DNA of 64,000 nucleotides, from positions 52,514,001 through 52,578,000 of the forward strand of contig NC_043006.1 in the NCBI RefSeq assembly GCF_006345805.1, read 5' to 3'. Of the stretch, positions 18,001-57,000 are shown one piece after another (the stretch's first letter is position 1; each line of letters starts with the position of its first letter). This DNA is from Octopus sinensis (Eukaryota). The position numbers were made by a program.

Positions 18001-21000
18001 GTATAAGTCTTGAAAAAAATTACAAAATTCGATTCCAGGTGAGAATGCGATCGATAATGCCATGGGAAAGTGCATCGTTTTTGTCCTGCTTTTCTTCCGT
18101 CAAACTGTACATAACTGCACCTTCCATTTTTTGTACTGCTTAAAGGCACGTTTCTTTCCTGCCAAGCTTACTGTTTAAACCATGTTTGTGTTCTCCCAGT
18201 CAACAGCCTTATCACTACTGATACTTTAAACTCTTCGGTTGCATATTTGTGTGAATAAAATCGTTTTTCTTTGGAATAAAAAAAAGTCTATCGTTATTTC
18301 TTCTTTTGCTGGTGTCTCAAATTTAGGCTAAATCAGTGTTTCTCAAAAGGGAGGCCTATGGGACGTTCGGACAAGTTGGTTTGAGAAAATTTGGTTTAAA
18401 TGTTTGACAACACAGCACCGTCAATTGGACGGGGGTGGGGCTTTTGCTCGCATTATATATAATATAATATTATATTATATGTGGAGGCGCCATGGCCCAG
18501 TGGTTAGGGCAGCGGACTCGCGGTCGGAGGATCGCGGTTTTGATTCCCAGACTGGGCGTTGTGTGTGTTTATTGAGCGAAAACATCTAAAGCTCCACGAG
18601 GCTCCAGCAGGGGATGGTGGTGACCCCTGTTGTACTCTTTCGCCCCAATTTTCTCTCACTCTTTCTTCCTGTTTCTTGAGTAACGCTGCGATGGACTGGC
18701 GTCCCGTCCAGCAGGAGGAACACATACGCCACAGAAACCGGGAAACCGGGCCCATGAGCCTGGCTAGGCTTGAAAAGGGCGCATAAATAAAAAATAAATA
18801 AATATTATATATTATATAAAATATAACCCCTACATTCATACATACCTAAATACATGCACAGAGGCTTACAAGAACTCATCATAAAATGACTCTAAACAGA
18901 TGCTGTGGCAATGTTGCCATGTCCAGGTGGCAAATGTGCAAACTTATTTACATACTAAGAAATCTCGACGTAAGCCAAAATGTTTCCACATTCCAGCCAC
19001 GATCATCATTTCCCTCTCGCAGGCAATGCGTGTCAAAAACAACGTTTTTTTACGTAGTGGGGTGTAATATGGGAAATTTGGCTGCTAAATCTGGTAGCTG
19101 GAAGTACCCTCTAGAAGGTACTTCTAGTAATAGAAGTACCATCAAGAAGGTACTTCTATTACAAGGTAGGTTCCCTTGTAATAAGCTATTAATAGTTGCA
19201 TCATGGTTAGAAAATTGCTTGTATATTTATTTGAAGTATCTTACACAATATTTGATGTATTGAAGAGGGAAAATATGTGTTCTGGATGAAACACTGATTT
19301 TCCATGAATGGGTATGCTGTAAGTAAGAGATATTTCATCTTGTATCTGTGATTTATAATTACTATATTTGATGAGTATGTGTTTGTTACACGCCTGGAGA
19401 ACCCATACACACACTCGCTCGCGCACAATACAAATTGAATGGGATTGATGGGAAAAAATGAAAAGAAACAAAGACATGCTTATAAAACTATTCTGATAAT
19501 TTCTTTATTTCGTTTTGATTGCAATAATGATTAGTCTGATCTGAAGAAGGCTCTGTTAAATACGTTAAATACGTATTTGATTTTCACAATTTTATATATA
19601 TATATTTCTTGCAAATGTTTCCGAAAGAATTATCATGACAGAAAATTATGCATGCGTTATTTTTATTCTAGAATCACAGGAAAAGCATTTTAAATTATTT
19701 AGACAAAATCATTTATATATAAACAATGAAATATATATATATATATATATATATATATATATATATATATATATATATATATATATATATATATATATAT
19801 ATATATATATATATAGTGAAAGTGATTGTAGTAGAAAAAAAATATTTATTAATATATTCTCAAATTAAAAATTATCATCGTATGGTGAAATGAAAATTCA
19901 GTCTTGATTTTTAGGAAACAGTGGGGATTATAGAAGTTCATTTTAGGTGTATTTATTTTCCAATCTGGCAGTTGGCTTTGAGTGGCCAGTCACACACTTG
20001 TAGATTCTTGTTGAAATGCAAGTTTCCGGGACAATCTTTTCTGTAGGAAAGGTTCCAATCGCACTGGTAAAAATGTCTGCAGCTTTGTGGGTCAGGGAAA
20101 AGACCGGATGCCTGAGGACACGTGAAGTCTATTGAAAAAGAAAATAAAGAAATATATATATAAACACAATATATATATGTATATATGTATATGCATATAC
20201 ATGTATATATATGTATGTGAATATATATGTATACATGTATGCATGTGTGCGTATATATATACATAATATACATACATACACATAGACATACACGTACATA
20301 CATACATACACACACACACACACACACACATATATATATATATATACATACATACATATGTGCATACACATACACATATACACACACGTTACACAGACAC
20401 ATATGGATAGAAGCACATTGACACATTTTATTGACTGACTACTTAAATCATACATCTTTTTAAACCGACGATTATTCAAGCATATTTAAATCATTACTTT
20501 TATATAATTAAAAGAGACTGACTACATAGCAAGTCTGTAAATCCAATCTTGAAAATTATTCATCGATCTGCTTTGCTGTAAGGAACCTCTAACTTTTTTT
20601 ATTTATGGCAGTTGGCTTTGAGTGGCCAGTCACACACTTGTAGATCCTTGTTGAAATGTTCGATATTTTTTCACTTAGGTAAAACAATTCAGCCGCACCA
20701 TTTACATTTATAAATGCTAAGGATAAACTCTCTCTCTTTCTCTATCAGATACACAAACACACACACACACACACAGACACACACACACCACACGCACACA
20801 CACACACACACACACACACATACACAAAAACACCCCCCCACACACACACACAAACACCCCACCACACACACACAAACAAAAACACGTATATTGTCTAAAT
20901 TACTGCCAGCACTCCATCCAAACCTTGGGTTTCATGCTGATAGAACTGTTTTGCTGCATTTTCACGTAGTGTAGGAACTAACATTTCCAATACGTGATAA

Positions 21001-54000: not shown

Positions 54001-57000
54001 ATTTCTGTGGATTTTGTGTGTGTGAGTGTGTGTGCATGAATAAGAGAGAGAAAGAGTGCGCGTTGTTATGTGTCTTAAAACAAGCGACTTACAAACACAC
54101 ACGCATATAAATACTCCAAATAGTACATTTAATAATATATTCATATAATAATCACCCATGGCTAATTAATAATCATTACATAAACATAAACTGTTGATTT
54201 CATTCGCACAAACTTTTATACTCTTGGATGCGTTCCTGCACGTTTACAGGTGTAGTATTAATTTATAAATGTACACAAATAATTAAAGGTGTTTGATGGT
54301 CGTATATACATACATACATACGTACATACATACATCCATCCATACATACACATACATACATTCATATATGCGTACATACATGATACATATCTGTGTATGT
54401 TTATGAATTTGTACTGTCACTGAAGCGCAGCATAACATCTGTTTATATTGTAATAACGGGAGGTGATGTAATCCATGTGCATGTATTTATGTATATTTGA
54501 GTTTGTATATATGTGTATATCCATAAGTGCATTTTTATGTAAATGAAATATGTGTATGTGTTTACTCGTGTGTACATGTACGTATATGTTTACATTTTAA
54601 GGAATGTAAAACTTAGGAATAGAATACTTACAGAGATTGTTACAGCAACAAGGGTGCAGAGCAGAAGACTACTAGTTAACTGAAGCATGTTGATTGTCTT
54701 ATTAGGGATTATCTAATGAGAGCTTAAATATATAGTGTTTATATAAATATCACCAGTCCACTTGCCCCTGCGAAGGCGATGCTAGTCAACGTATTGAATA
54801 GCGACTTAATACACACACTCACACTCACAAAGGAGTTTCTGTGTGGAAACGAACTCACTGAATTCTCCGAATAAGTCCGGTGAACAGACAAGGCAAATAT
54901 GACACACTGTGAGGGAAAGCCCAGTATTTAAAGGTGATCGTCAATAGAAGACAGTGTTATGTTTGTGAATGAGGTCGAGTGTATATGCCAAAGTTTACAC
55001 AAAGGTATACGAGTTTGAAAGTCGCGCCAGATGACCAATGAAAACGGGTTTCTGTAGCTTTGTTCCTCTAATCGTGCCAATCAGAGACTACATCAGCTGG
55101 AATAAGACCGACAGTGTGAGTGCTATTCGCATCTCACGCCTAGTACGAGGCAGTAAACTTGAACATCAACTAACCAACACCTGCTTTCGGTTGTGAAAAG
55201 GCAATCTCAAAGGTAGGGCGATATAAAGGTAGGGGTGGGGGAGAGAGGAGGTTGGAAAAGAAGAAAAAAGACCACGACGATGGCGATGATGACGACGACG
55301 ACGAAGAAGAAATAAGAGCTATAAAAAGCAAGAATGGAAGAAGAAAAAGGAAGAAAAGAAGGATAAAAGAAGAAAGGTGTGGAGTGGCAATGATTAGGAA
55401 AAAAGTATTTCTCTAGCAGAGTTAATATATGTAGGAGTTTTATAATTTGAATGTAAACAGAAAGAAAATAAACGAACAAAAGGTTTTTTTGTCCTTAAAG
55501 TAAATATAAAAGATAGAAAGACATAATAGAAATCTGACATAGAATTATACAATATTTATTTTGTGAACCGTTTCAAAGAATATAGCTTTATTGAATATAA
55601 CTTATTTGGAAAAGGATTGTCTACCTATCTATTTCTCTATGTCTGTATCTATCTGTCACTAAGACACAGACACAGACACACACACAGACACACACACACA
55701 CACACACACACACACACACACACACACATGCACATTCACGCACATGCACGCACACGCTTGCATGTATGGATGCCAGCTTTAATACCTACCTACCTACCTA
55801 CTTGCCTACGTACCTACTTGCCTACCTACCTACCTTGCTACCTACCTTCCTACCTACCTACCTACCTACCTATCTACCTACCTACATAATTCATACATGC
55901 ATACATACATACATACATACATACATACATACATACATACATGCATACATACAAGAAAGTACGTACGTAAGTATGCAGTAGGTATGAATTTGTGCGGGTA
56001 TATACATACTGTGTACATGCATATTTGTGTATATACATACATACATATATATATACATATATACATACACGCACACATAAATATATATATATACATACAT
56101 ATATATATATATATATATATATATATATATATATATATATATATGTATATATATATATATATATATATATATATATATATATATATATATATATATATAT
56201 ATATATATATATATGGGTTATATATATATGACATACATACATATTTACACACAAACATACATATATATATGCATACAAGTATGGTTTAAATTCTATGGTT
56301 TAAGTACTACTTAGCACTATAACTATTTTCTTTCCTTTCTTTCCTAGGTCTACCCATGTATATACTGTTTTTGTCTTTACTATTTATTACGTAACTCTTT
56401 TCATCCTTTGACAAAAGGCGATCATCAAGCAATACTCACCATTTGTTGTTTAACTCGGAAACAGTTATAGAAAGGACGACAGTATGTATGTATGTGTGTG
56501 TGTGAGAGTGAGAGAGAATGAGAGAGAGAGAAAAAGAGAGAGAGAAAGAGAGAGAGAGAGAGAGAGAGAGGAGAGAAAGTGTGTGTGTGTGTGTGTGTGT
56601 GTGTGTTACTTCTGTTGTAGCTACATCACTTTGTTCGAGTATTTTTATAATACAATGTTAGGATGGCAAGAAAAGTTCTGTCTTGTTCTACAGGCGAGTC
56701 GATTTGCTACAACAAATTTACCAGAGCAAAATCGAAAGATCATTAAGCATTTAATTGCTTAGATTCTCGATGGCGTGCTATTCATTACAAATATACATAT
56801 ATATATATATATATGTACACACATATATATATATATGCACATATATACATATATATACATATTTATGTGTATATATATATGTTTATATATGTGTATGTGT
56901 GTGTATATATATATAGAGAGAGAGAGAGAAAGAGAGAGAGAGAGAGAATTCTTTATATATATATAATGAGGGACCAAAGAAGTTGGAATCACAATGTGCC

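What the first reader, a model, noticed from the sequence alone, without database searches (positions are those of the whole stretch)
19953..54688. Notch-ligand-like protein with a chitin-binding domain in place of the membrane anchor (SP-MNNL-DSL-17xEGF-CBM14)
Seen: 12 exons join a signal peptide, MNNL/C2, a six-Cys DSL and 17 EGFs to a terminal peritrophin-A/CBM14 domain and a stop. I found no transmembrane or intracellular segment. The ORF track shows only the EGF block, the CBM14 exon and exon 2, so the architecture is invisible without manual splicing. Established: Delta and Serrate/Jagged are type I membrane proteins whose signalling needs pulling force from ligand endocytosis; soluble ligands tend to inhibit, while surface-immobilised ligands can activate Notch. 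Inference: this protein could be secreted and tethered to a chitinous matrix (in cephalopods: beak, radula, sucker or gut cuticle). The matrix could then present a Notch cue or decoy, or the ligand scaffold may have been co-opted as a matrix-cell linker. I do not know of a described DSL+CBM14 fusion, but I could not search.
Basis: partly seen in the sequence, partly recalled or inferred. Interest (0 to 1): 0.9.

Follow-up and report, generated by a model that had tools for sequence, protein, structure and literature searches.

The report
Secreted octopus Delta-like chitin-binding protein
An octopus gene encodes a secreted relative of the Notch ligands that ends in a chitin-binding domain instead of a membrane anchor; it belongs to a small octopus gene family and is more likely a matrix protein than a Notch signal.

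Summary
The architecture is real. On the minus strand, 12 exons with AG/GT borders (54688 to 19953) encode a signal-peptide-like start, a weak MNNL/C2 match, a six-Cys DSL, 17 EGFs (4 single exons plus a 13-EGF exon), an 18-nt micro-exon and a terminal CBM14 followed by a stop. Seven predicted proteins from two other Octopus species carry the same layout, and none has a transmembrane segment.

There are three caveats:
- Exon 3 is one base short and runs into a TAA, so the reading frame is broken in this assembly.
- Exon 8 appears in none of the six family models compared exon by exon.
- The closest-species model stops after exon 10, without the CBM14.

The five DSL residues that form the Notch-binding face of canonical ligands are all replaced, in 12 of 12 family sequences. 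I therefore favour a chitin-anchored matrix protein derived from a Notch ligand over a matrix-presented Notch cue.

Automatic annotations already hold these models under misleading names. The papers I searched describe TM-less mollusc "Delta2" genes but no DSL+CBM14 fusion. This is a new variant of a known kind, of moderate interest.

The parts
54632..54688 (-). Exon 1: ATG and a 19-residue hydrophobic, signal-peptide-like start; donor GTAAGT, phase 0
   Evidence: 100% identical to P0008 and P0010. Kyte-Doolittle 19-residue maximum about 2.1 in the orthologues' N-termini.
49086..49275 (-). Exon 2: first part of the MNNL/C2-like domain (63 full codons, 4 Cys); donor GTAAGT, phase 1
   Evidence: Pfam MNNL E 0.013, 15.4 bits, below the 22.5 cut-off. 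100% to P0008, 86% to P0001. Only 7 hits among 1.84 billion representatives.
41124..41205 (-). Exon 3: middle of the MNNL-like domain. It is 82 nt, one base short. Read from the acceptor it meets an in-frame TAA (about 41164-41162), and the rest of the exon continues in another frame
   Evidence: P0008 and P0010 read one more residue here, and the two HSPs share nt 41165.
37944..38111 (-). Exon 4: last part of the MNNL-like domain (56 codons, phase 0 to 0)
   Evidence: No Pfam match on its own. 100% to P0008, 86% to P0001.
37311..37455 (-). Exon 5: DSL domain with six Cys; the canonical Notch-contact loop is replaced
   Evidence: Pfam DSL 40.5 bits. Best PDB match DLL1 4xbm, E 1.6e-4, with equal Cys spacing. 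0 of 5 face residues kept.
35410..35520 (-). Exon 6: EGF 1 (phase 1 to 1)
34627..34746 (-). Exon 7: EGF 2, calcium-binding type (phase 1 to 1)
   Evidence: Pfam EGF 35.9 bits, EGF_CA 30.3 bits against a cut-off of 27. 97% to P0001.
32359..32472 (-). Exon 8: EGF 3, a possible cassette exon found in none of the six models compared
   Evidence: Pfam EGF 30 bits. AG/GTGAGT borders. Best identity to any of the six models is 56%.
29842..29961 (-). Exon 9: EGF 4 (phase 1 to 1)
   Evidence: 79% to P0001.
26761..28209 (-). Exon 10: 13 EGFs, 78 Cys. The models use the acceptor at 28209; a second AG 9 nt downstream gives 28200. Donor G|GTTAGT, phase 1. Contains a 219-nt two-EGF tandem unit at 27341-27859
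22826..22843 (-). Exon 11: 18-nt micro-exon giving a 7-residue linker between the last EGF and the CBM14 (phase 1 to 1)
   Evidence: of 107 candidates, this one shares the V..PQ.N pattern of the P0001 linker and has a pyrimidine-rich acceptor and a GTAAGT donor. Sequence. P0001 has a 7-residue linker at the same place. The P0010 model uses the same borders.
19953..20128 (-). Exon 12: peritrophin-A/CBM14 domain (C-x12-C-x5-C-x9-C-x12-C-x7-C). TAA at 19955-19953; an AATAAA hexamer overlaps the stop
   Evidence: Pfam CBM_14 51.1 bits. PDB: chitinase CBM in 6g9c, E 4.6e-12; also tachycitin and chitotriosidase. 88% to P0001. Hexamer.
20606..20658 (-). 53-nt copy (52 of 53 identical) of the 3' part of the CBM14 exon, inside the last intron; not a whole exon

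Best explanation
The locus is one member of a small Octopus family of secreted Delta-like proteins. As far as the databases searched show, the family occurs only in Octopus, and its genes appear to lie in tandem.

Layout: signal peptide, C2-like MNNL, DSL, a rod of EGF repeats (up to 17 here), a 7-residue linker from an 18-nt micro-exon, then a peritrophin-A/CBM14 domain and the stop.

Shown here: the exons, the domains, the lack of any transmembrane segment, and the same layout in predicted proteins of two other Octopus species.

Inferred origin: a Notch-ligand ancestor lost its membrane anchor and tail and gained a CBM14 exon. All exons from the first EGF to the CBM14 are phase 1 to 1, which allows such shuffling.

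Inferred function: an extracellular matrix protein.
- The CBM14 fixes the C-terminus in chitin, for example in the sucker lining, beak, radula or gut cuticle.
- The EGF rod acts as a spacer whose length changes by duplication of two-EGF units.
- The C2-DSL head has lost all five canonical Notch-contact residues, but its replacement loop is conserved within the family. It probably binds another partner: a cell-surface lipid or receptor, or itself.

In this assembly exon 3 lacks one base, so this copy is either mis-assembled there or a null allele.

My odds are about 0.9 for the architecture and about 0.5 for the matrix role.
For: Architecture:
- The CBM14 exon alone retrieves 7 of 7 candidates. 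All are Octopus models (O. bimaculoides, O. sinensis) at 68-88% identity, and PF01414 (DSL) is in the precomputed list of 7 of 7.
- My own scans find DSL in 7 of 7. CBM_14 is found in 3 of 7 whole proteins and in 4 of 4 C-termini of the other four when scanned alone.
- P0001 is collinear with the window through exons 1-7 and 9-12, including the linker.
- The CBM14 exon is as conserved to P0001 (88%) as exons 1-7 and 9 (77-97%); only exon 10 is lower (64%).
- The unnamed model P0010 enters the micro-exon and exon 12 at the same borders.
- There is no hydrophobic 19-mer above 1.25 outside the N-terminus in 8 of 8 Octopus proteins. A coral DSL protein used as a control reaches 2.99.

Descent from ligands: P0003 aligns over about 300 residues with DLL4, Jagged-1 and DLL1 structures (E about 1e-17 and 3e-60). 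The nearest named Atlas clusters are Delta-like, with scores of 0.83-0.89, which counts as a lead only.

Matrix role rather than Notch signal:
- 0 of 5 Notch-face residues are kept in 12 of 12 sequences, yet the replacements are conserved.
- Exon 6 does not reach the cut-off of the Delta/Jagged EGF model (12.4 against 27 bits).
- A 219-nt two-EGF unit is repeated 2.4 times at 93% match, and relatives carry other copy numbers.
- The family is narrow: exon 2 finds 7 proteins among 1.84 billion representatives, 6 of them family members.
- Precedent: octovafibrin, an O. bimaculoides egg-tether fibre protein built as lectin, 29 EGFs, lectin (PMC10336842, abstract and passages).
Against: - There are no expression, protein or binding data of any kind here.
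- The only model retrieved from the closest species (P0008, O. vulgaris, 100% identical in exons 1, 2, 4, 5 and 6) skips exons 7-9. It ends by reading through the exon 10 donor, so it has no CBM14.
- P0010 reads exons 11 and 12 in the wrong frame, so it supports the borders but not the protein.
- All supporting proteins are computer predictions. Some look chimeric between tandem paralogues (P0005, P0012).
- A DSL loop that is conserved within the family could still bind a co-evolved octopus Notch.
- Keeping a C2-like head is what a signalling ligand would do.
- The frameshift in exon 3 may mean this copy is dead.
- The AlphaFold2 model of P0003 was too poor to test the C2 or CBM14 fold (mean pLDDT 52; residues 1-110 and 370-429 below 50).
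Confidence: 0.5

Rival explanations
1. Chitin-immobilised Notch ligand or decoy. The protein is secreted and fixed to chitin by the CBM14. It then presents its C2-DSL head to Notch on the cells that line the cuticle. It either activates Notch, because the anchor resists pulling, or blocks it.
For: - The N-terminal 300 residues of the paralogue P0003 are homologous to Notch-binding fragments of DLL1, DLL4 and Jagged-1.
- The DSL keeps six Cys with the same spacing and the YYG motif.
- Natural secreted DSL proteins exist in C. elegans.
- Immobilised ligands activate Notch where soluble ones do not (bioRxiv 10.1101/2021.02.11.429991, abstract and passages).
Against: - 0 of 5 residues of the conserved Notch-binding face are kept in 12 of 12 family sequences.
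- Jagged1 F207A abolishes Notch binding (PMC3888931, passages), and R203K affects Notch recognition (PMC5538765, passages).
- The Delta/Jagged-type first EGF is not detected.
- The family is young, varies in EGF number and is narrow in range. That pattern is unusual for a core signal.
Confidence: 0.2
2. Soluble chitin-recognition protein of mucus or blood. The CBM14 binds chitin of fungi, parasites or prey, and the EGF rod and head link it to host cells. This would be an immune or digestive lectin rather than a structural part of the animal's own cuticle.
For: - The closest solved relatives of the CBM14 are domains of secreted chitinases, tachycitin and a mite allergen.
- The protein has a single CBM14, whereas many structural peritrophins carry several. 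That comparison is recalled and comes from no call.
Against: Nothing here separates this reading from the matrix reading. No immune-type domain was found.
Confidence: 0.1
3. The copy in this window is a pseudogene or null allele. The missing base in exon 3 is real, translation stops after about 96 residues, and only the paralogues and the orthologues in other species are functional.
For: Exon 3 is 82 nt long, with an in-frame TAA. P0008 and P0010 show the intact state in near-identical sequence. Young tandem families often carry dead copies; this is general knowledge, not a call result.
Against: It is the only defect. Every other exon is open, all 78 + 24 + 6 + 6 Cys of the EGF, DSL and CBM14 exons are in place, and all 22 splice signals are intact. 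A single-base deletion is also a common assembly error. The two cannot be told apart here.
Confidence: 0.3
4. The CBM14 exon belongs to another small gene, and gene predictors have wrongly attached it to the Delta-like gene.
For: Phase compatibility alone is a one-in-three event. P0008 ends without the CBM14. Some family models are visibly chimeric.
Against: - The same fusion appears in 7 models from two species and several paralogues, with the stop at the same place.
- An 18-nt micro-exon with consensus signals bridges the two parts and is conserved.
- A scan for an alternative first exon returned 31 candidates, all lying at 23.6-23.9 kb or 20.2-20.5 kb and made of repeat-like Cys/Tyr/Ile/Val strings.
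- No other gene of this family lies in the window (0 of 177 HSPs outside 19900-54700).
Confidence: 0.05

Closest known systems
Canonical DSL Notch ligands (Delta, Serrate/Jagged; solved fragments DLL1 4xbm, DLL4 5mvx, Jagged-1 4cbz)
   Same: Same order of modules at the N-terminus: signal peptide, MNNL/C2, six-Cys DSL, EGF repeats. There is clear sequence homology over about 300 residues for the paralogue P0003.
   Different: - No transmembrane segment or cytoplasmic tail.
- All five residues of the conserved Notch-binding face are replaced.
- The first EGF is an ordinary EGF, not the Delta/Jagged type.
- A C-terminal CBM14 is present.
Mollusc-specific 'Delta2' (PMC8166818, Sci Rep 2021; abstract and passages seen)
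   Same: A Delta paralogue clade in bivalves, gastropods and cephalopods, including O. bimaculoides and O. vulgaris. [quoted passage not shown]
   Different: The word 'chitin' does not occur in the main text. Matches with unexpected architecture were discarded in that study. Whether the family here is their Delta2 cannot be told, because the sequence ids are in supplements that were closed.
Natural secreted DSL proteins of C. elegans
   Same: DSL proteins without a membrane anchor (bioRxiv 10.1101/2021.02.11.429991, abstract).
   Different: Those are taken to signal through Notch. That paper suggests they need an unknown membrane-anchoring partner, and they carry no carbohydrate-binding domain. 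I take their origin to be independent of the octopus family, but I did not test that.
Octovafibrin (O. bimaculoides egg tether) and sea-urchin fibropellins
   Same: Secreted rods of tandem EGF repeats capped by terminal binding or assembly domains, which build extracellular material (PMC10336842, abstract and passages). NCBI even names the orthologue 'fibropellin-1'.
   Different: Octovafibrin has C-type lectins at both ends. Fibropellins have C1S-like and avidin-like ends. Neither has MNNL, DSL or CBM14. The likeness is in how they work, not in descent.
Peritrophin-A / CBM14 proteins (chitinase CBMs, tachycitin, peritrophins)
   Same: The last exon is a full-length CBM14 with six Cys.
   Different: Here there is a single CBM14, at the end of a Notch-ligand-like protein.

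Membership tests
Canonical DSL Notch ligands (Delta/Serrate/Jagged) | N-terminal signal peptide | tested here: met
   Crude test only. Exon 1 encodes M plus an 18-residue, mostly hydrophobic stretch. 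The N-terminal Kyte-Doolittle 19-mer maximum is 1.86-2.14 in 8 of 8 Octopus models. No signal-peptide predictor was available.
Canonical DSL Notch ligands (Delta/Serrate/Jagged) | MNNL / C2 domain before the DSL | tested here: inconclusive
   Window exon 2 scores 15.4 bits against a 22.5 cut-off. Exon 4 gives no match, and exon 2 finds no PDB ligand. The paralogues P0003, P0011 and P0014 pass at 32-34 bits. P0003 residues 26-270 align with DLL1 residues 4-249. The fold was not testable because the AF2 model has pLDDT below 50 there.
Canonical DSL Notch ligands (Delta/Serrate/Jagged) | DSL domain with six cysteines | tested here: met
   Pfam DSL 40.5 bits against a 24.2 cut-off. The Cys spacing equals that of DLL1, DLL4 and fly Delta.
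Canonical DSL Notch ligands (Delta/Serrate/Jagged) | [quoted passage not shown] | tested here: not met
   The equivalent positions, placed by the DLL1, DLL4 and Delta alignments, read R, E, P, I, Q in the window. They are 0 of 5 in 12 of 12 family sequences. The Jagged-1 row itself was not printed, so the mapping goes by the F-C-R-x-R-x-D-x-F pattern.
Canonical DSL Notch ligands (Delta/Serrate/Jagged) | Tandem EGF repeats after the DSL | tested here: met
   17 EGFs.
Canonical DSL Notch ligands (Delta/Serrate/Jagged) | Atypical first EGFs of Delta/Jagged type | tested here: not met
   Pfam EGF_DL_JAG scores 12.4 bits for exon 6 and 13.5 bits for the DSL exon, against a 27 cut-off.
Canonical DSL Notch ligands (Delta/Serrate/Jagged) | Single-pass transmembrane segment and cytoplasmic tail | tested here: not met
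   The stop follows the CBM14 directly. No hydrophobic segment appears in 8 of 8 models. TM-like ORFs downstream occur at chance density: 4 in 26.7 kb, against 24 and 27 per strand in 64 kb. The best of them is found in no protein of 120 residues or more.
Canonical DSL Notch ligands (Delta/Serrate/Jagged) | Binds and activates Notch | not testable with these tools
   No octopus Notch sequence was in hand and no assay was possible.
CBM14 / peritrophin-A | Match to the family profile over its full length | tested here: met
   51.1 bits against a 22.1 cut-off, covering profile positions 1-53 of 53. The same holds for 7 of 7 relatives.
CBM14 / peritrophin-A | Six cysteines in the family's spacing | tested here: met
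   C-x12-C-x5-C-x9-C-x12-C-x7-C, read. It aligns Cys for Cys with the chitinase CBM of 6g9c.
CBM14 / peritrophin-A | Binds chitin | not testable with these tools
   Needs a pull-down with recombinant domain.
Mollusc Delta2 (PMC8166818) | Falls in the Delta2 clade; shorter than Delta1 by early termination | not testable with these tools
ECM EGF-rod proteins (octovafibrin, fibropellin); a likeness in function only | Found in extracellular material and assembled through terminal domains | not testable with these tools
   Only the layout is shared.

The most novel reading that the evidence does not exclude
Octopus has made a natural 'surface-immobilised' Notch ligand. The protein is a secreted C2-DSL-EGF chain that its CBM14 nails to the chitin cuticle. 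Its remodelled but family-conserved DSL loop has co-evolved with octopus Notch. The cuticle itself would then tell the underlying epithelium, through Notch, where cuticle is present. Anchoring to chitin would replace ligand endocytosis as the source of resistance to pulling.
Probability: 0.12. Interest if true: 0.9.

Novelty: new variant of a known kind. Interest (0 to 1): 0.5.

Why it matters
Notch ligands of flies and vertebrates are membrane proteins whose endocytosis supplies the pulling force. A family that keeps the ligand head but swaps the anchor for a chitin-binding domain shows how a signalling scaffold can be recycled into matrix biology. The less likely alternative is that a solid matrix can stand in for a membrane. 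Either way it gives a concrete, testable protein for cephalopod cuticle biology (suckers, beak, radula, gut lining).

It also exposes an annotation gap. The models are public under unrelated names: 'fibropellin-1', 'jagged-1b-like' and 'notch homolog 1-like'. Whole-protein Pfam scans miss the CBM14 in 4 of 7 of them. A survey that searched by domain architecture could therefore overlook the family.

Tried and rejected
- Structure. AlphaFold2 on P0003 with an 8-row family alignment gave mean pLDDT 52 and pTM 0.27, with the MNNL and CBM14 parts below 50. I did not send it to fold search because matches would be meaningless. The C2 fold stays untested.
- TM exon hunt. Hydrophobic 21-mers in minus-strand ORFs below 26760 numbered 4, against 24 on the minus and 27 on the plus strand in the whole window, which is chance level. 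One ORF (6523-6726) has a phase-1 AG just before the hydrophobic run, but a poor pyrimidine tract. It has no Pfam match, and no protein of 120 residues or more contains it (100 candidates, none scored). I rejected it as an exon on this weak evidence.
- Alternative first exon for a stand-alone CBM14 gene. The scan gave 31 candidates, all at 23.6-23.9 kb or 20.2-20.5 kb and made of repeat-like Cys/Tyr/Ile/Val strings. Four control stretches gave 5, 8, 17 and 11. The test is uninformative.
- Alternative splice choices that would restore the frame in exon 3. None exists: the second frame has two stops right after the acceptor, and the only internal AG is in the wrong phase.
- Range of the family. 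The search with the N-terminal 215 residues of P0001 found 7 of 489 candidates, 6 of them Octopus and one a coral multi-DSL membrane protein. Exon 2 against 1.84 billion representatives found 7, one of them a spurious repeat protein. Canonical octopus Delta and Jagged were not retrieved, so I cannot place the family relative to them.
- Protein Atlas. The nearest named clusters are Delta-like, with scores below 0.9. No cluster with CBM_14 was shown. This is a lead only.
- Other ORFs of the window. Eight were scanned with Pfam, and only one gave a match: a sub-threshold Tc3-type transposase at 9991-10266.
- Papers. Searches found no paper that joins DSL or Notch ligands with chitin-binding or peritrophin in a relevant way. 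One search returned one tick paper and search 50 one squid symbiosis paper; I did not read either. One search led to octovafibrin. One search led to the secreted-DSL preprint. One search led to the review naming the DSL face. One search led to the Delta2 paper.
- Not used. The joined 12-exon product was never assembled, translated, searched or folded. The window is cephalopod, not human, and holds no N.

Full report
**What is there.** The window is AT-rich (GC 0.31-0.40) and has no N. It is cephalopod DNA, not human. The finding lies on the minus strand. Stop-to-stop ORFs and Pfam scans of single ORFs gave these results:
- CBM_14 at the 3' end: 51.1 bits against a 22.1 cut-off.
- A 499-residue ORF with 13 EGF stretches.
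- Four single-EGF ORFs.
- A DSL ORF: 40.5 bits against a 24.2 cut-off.
- A weak MNNL match: 15.4 bits against a 22.5 cut-off.

Reading the borders base by base gave AG acceptors and GT donors for all of these. Every exon from the first EGF to the CBM14 begins with two bases that complete a codon, so each is phase 1 to 1.

**Exon map.** The O. bimaculoides protein P0001, found with the CBM14 exon alone, served as a guide in a tblastn against the window. Exact border searches followed. The 12 exons are:

| Exon | Coordinates | Content |
|---|---|---|
| 1 | 54688-54632 | start, hydrophobic N-terminus |
| 2 | 49275-49086 | MNNL, first part |
| 3 | 41205-41124 | MNNL, middle (frame broken) |
| 4 | 38111-37944 | MNNL, last part |
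| 5 | 37455-37311 | DSL |
| 6 | 35520-35410 | EGF |
| 7 | 34746-34627 | EGF |
| 8 | 32472-32359 | EGF |
| 9 | 29961-29842 | EGF |
| 10 | 28209 (or 28200)-26761 | 13 EGFs |
| 11 | 22843-22826 | linker micro-exon |
| 12 | 20128-19953 | CBM14 and stop |

Exon 11 is an 18-nt micro-exon with a pyrimidine-rich CAG acceptor and a GTAAGT donor. Among 107 phase-compatible candidates it is the one that shares the V..PQ.N pattern of the 7-residue P0001 linker and has consensus splice signals. An AATAAA hexamer overlaps the stop codon.

Each exon was searched on its own, and database proteins stood in for the whole.

**The break in exon 3.** Exon 3 is 82 nt long, but the frame needs 83. Read from its acceptor it meets a TAA, and the remaining 14 codons continue in another frame. 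Two near-identical proteins, P0008 (named O. vulgaris) and P0010 (unnamed), read one more residue at that point. Their two matches to the window share one nucleotide, 41165, so the window lacks one A. No alternative splice choice restores the frame.

Everything else is intact. All other exons are open, all cysteines are present and all 22 splice signals are intact. I cannot tell an assembly error from a real null allele.

**Is the CBM14 really the end of this gene?** The CBM14 exon, searched alone against proteins longer than 100 residues, returned 7 of 7 candidates. All are Octopus models, two from O. bimaculoides and five from O. sinensis, at 68-88% identity. All 7 carry DSL in the precomputed lists.

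My own scans agree:
- DSL is found in 7 of 7.
- CBM_14 is found in only 3 of 7 whole proteins.
- CBM_14 is found in 4 of 4 C-termini of the other four when scanned alone. So whole-protein scans miss the domain in the long members.

The stop follows the domain at the same place in all seven. The CBM14 exon is 88% identical to P0001. That is within the 77-97% range of exons 1-7 and 9; only exon 10 is lower, at 64%. P0010 enters exon 11 and exon 12 at exactly the borders I mapped, although an internal jump in exon 10 puts it in the wrong frame.

Against this, P0008, the only model retrieved from the closest species, skips exons 7-9 and ends two codons into the intron after exon 10, without the CBM14. 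All of these are computer predictions. Some look chimeric between neighbouring paralogues (P0005, P0012), which also suggests that the family lies in tandem. In the window itself there is only this one family gene: 0 of 177 HSPs fall outside 19900-54700 and none is on the plus strand.

**No membrane anchor.** Outside the N-terminus, no 19-residue stretch exceeds a Kyte-Doolittle mean of 1.25 in 8 of 8 Octopus proteins. A coral DSL protein used as a control reaches 2.99. TM-like ORFs downstream of exon 10 occur at chance density. The best of them matches no Pfam family and no protein of 120 residues or more. That is weak evidence, but it points the same way.

**Relation to Notch ligands.**
- The 429-residue paralogue P0003 aligns from residue 26-29 to about 330 with DLL4, Jagged-1 and DLL1 structures (E about 1e-17 and 3e-60).
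- The window's DSL exon alone finds DLL1, DLL4 and fly Delta (E 1.6e-4 to 0.02) with identical Cys spacing.
- A review names human Jagged1 F199, R201, R203, D205 and F207 as the highly conserved face that binds Notch (PMC3415683, passages).
- F207A abolishes binding (PMC3888931, passages), and R203K affects Notch recognition (PMC5538765, passages).

In the alignments, DLL1 and fly Delta show F, R, R, D, F at those alternate positions. The window shows R, E, P, I, Q. The window and 11 of 11 family models keep 0 of 5. The replacement loop is itself conserved: P, E, Q, R and F are invariant in the 8-protein alignment.

The first EGF after the DSL does not reach the Delta/Jagged EGF model's cut-off. 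MNNL passes the cut-off only in three paralogues. The AlphaFold2 model was too poor to test the fold.

**Range and variation.**
- Exon 2 finds only 7 proteins among 1.84 billion representatives. Six are family members and one is spurious.
- The N-terminal 215 residues of P0001 find six Octopus proteins and one coral protein among 489 candidates.
- Exon 10 holds a 219-nt two-EGF unit repeated 2.4 times at 93% match.
- P0001 has fewer of these units and P0007 has many more.

**What it most likely does.** I read it as a Notch-ligand-derived matrix protein. The CBM14 would act as a chitin anchor and the EGF rod as a spacer of variable length. The remodelled C2-DSL head would bind something other than Notch in the canonical way.

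Octopus already offers a described parallel in octovafibrin: lectin, 29 EGFs, lectin, forming egg-tether fibres (PMC10336842). Secreted DSL proteins exist in C. elegans, and immobilised ligands do activate Notch (bioRxiv 10.1101/2021.02.11.429991). The loss of all five contact residues argues against it.

**Novelty.** My full-text searches found no paper that joins a DSL protein with a chitin-binding domain. A 2021 survey of lophotrochozoan Notch genes describes duplicated Delta genes in molluscs, including both Octopus species. [quoted passage not shown] It also describes DSL genes with 'DSL, EGF, and other domains'. The word chitin is absent from its main text, and matches with unexpected architecture were discarded (PMC8166818). 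Its supplements, which were closed, may show whether this family is their Delta2.

The models themselves are public but misnamed. I rate this a new variant of a known kind, with interest 0.5.

Noticed in passing
window 41124-41205 (-): Exon 3 is one base short and carries an in-frame TAA. Near-identical proteins P0008 and P0010 read one more residue there.
   Followed up: yes
window 20606-20658 (-): A 53-nt copy (52 of 53 identical) of the 3' part of the CBM14 exon sits about 480 nt upstream of that exon, in the last intron. It looks like a recent partial duplication and is not a whole exon.
   Followed up: partly
window 27341-27859 (-), inside exon 10: A 219-nt unit encoding two EGFs is repeated 2.4 times at 93% match. 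The orthologue P0001 has fewer of these units and the paralogue P0007 has many more.
   Followed up: partly
window 32359-32472 (-): Exon 8, a clean six-Cys EGF exon with good splice signals, is in none of the six family models compared (best 56% identity). It may be a cassette exon or specific to this lineage.
   Followed up: partly
window 28200-28209 (-): There are two acceptor AGs 9 nt apart at the start of exon 10. The database models use the upstream one, which adds three residues.
   Followed up: partly
proteins P0001, P0005, P0006, P0007: Whole-protein Pfam scans do not report the CBM_14 that the C-terminus alone gives at E about 1e-14. The precomputed lists lack it too. A survey that searched by domain architecture could miss most of the family.
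   Followed up: yes
proteins P0012 and P0005: P0012 starts with a wrong-frame reading of a CBM14 exon and then runs into exon 2 of a family gene. P0005 combines the N-terminus of one paralogue with the C-terminus of another. This suggests tandem paralogues and read-through or chimeric models.
   Followed up: no
window 9991-10266 (-): ORF with a sub-threshold Tc3-type transposase HTH match (29.6 bits against 31.5). It looks like a Tc1/mariner remnant. ORFs at 43326-44138 on both strands look like more transposase remnants but gave no Pfam match.
   Followed up: partly
window 22947-23141 (+) and 24575-24772 (-): Two ORF translations about 65 residues long are nearly the same but lie in opposite orientation. 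They look like inverted copies of a short interspersed repeat in the intron between exons 10 and 11.
   Followed up: no
window 6523-6726 (-): A 68-residue ORF of ordinary composition has an 18-residue hydrophobic run, a short tail and a phase-1 AG just before the run. It has no Pfam match and no containing protein.
   Followed up: yes
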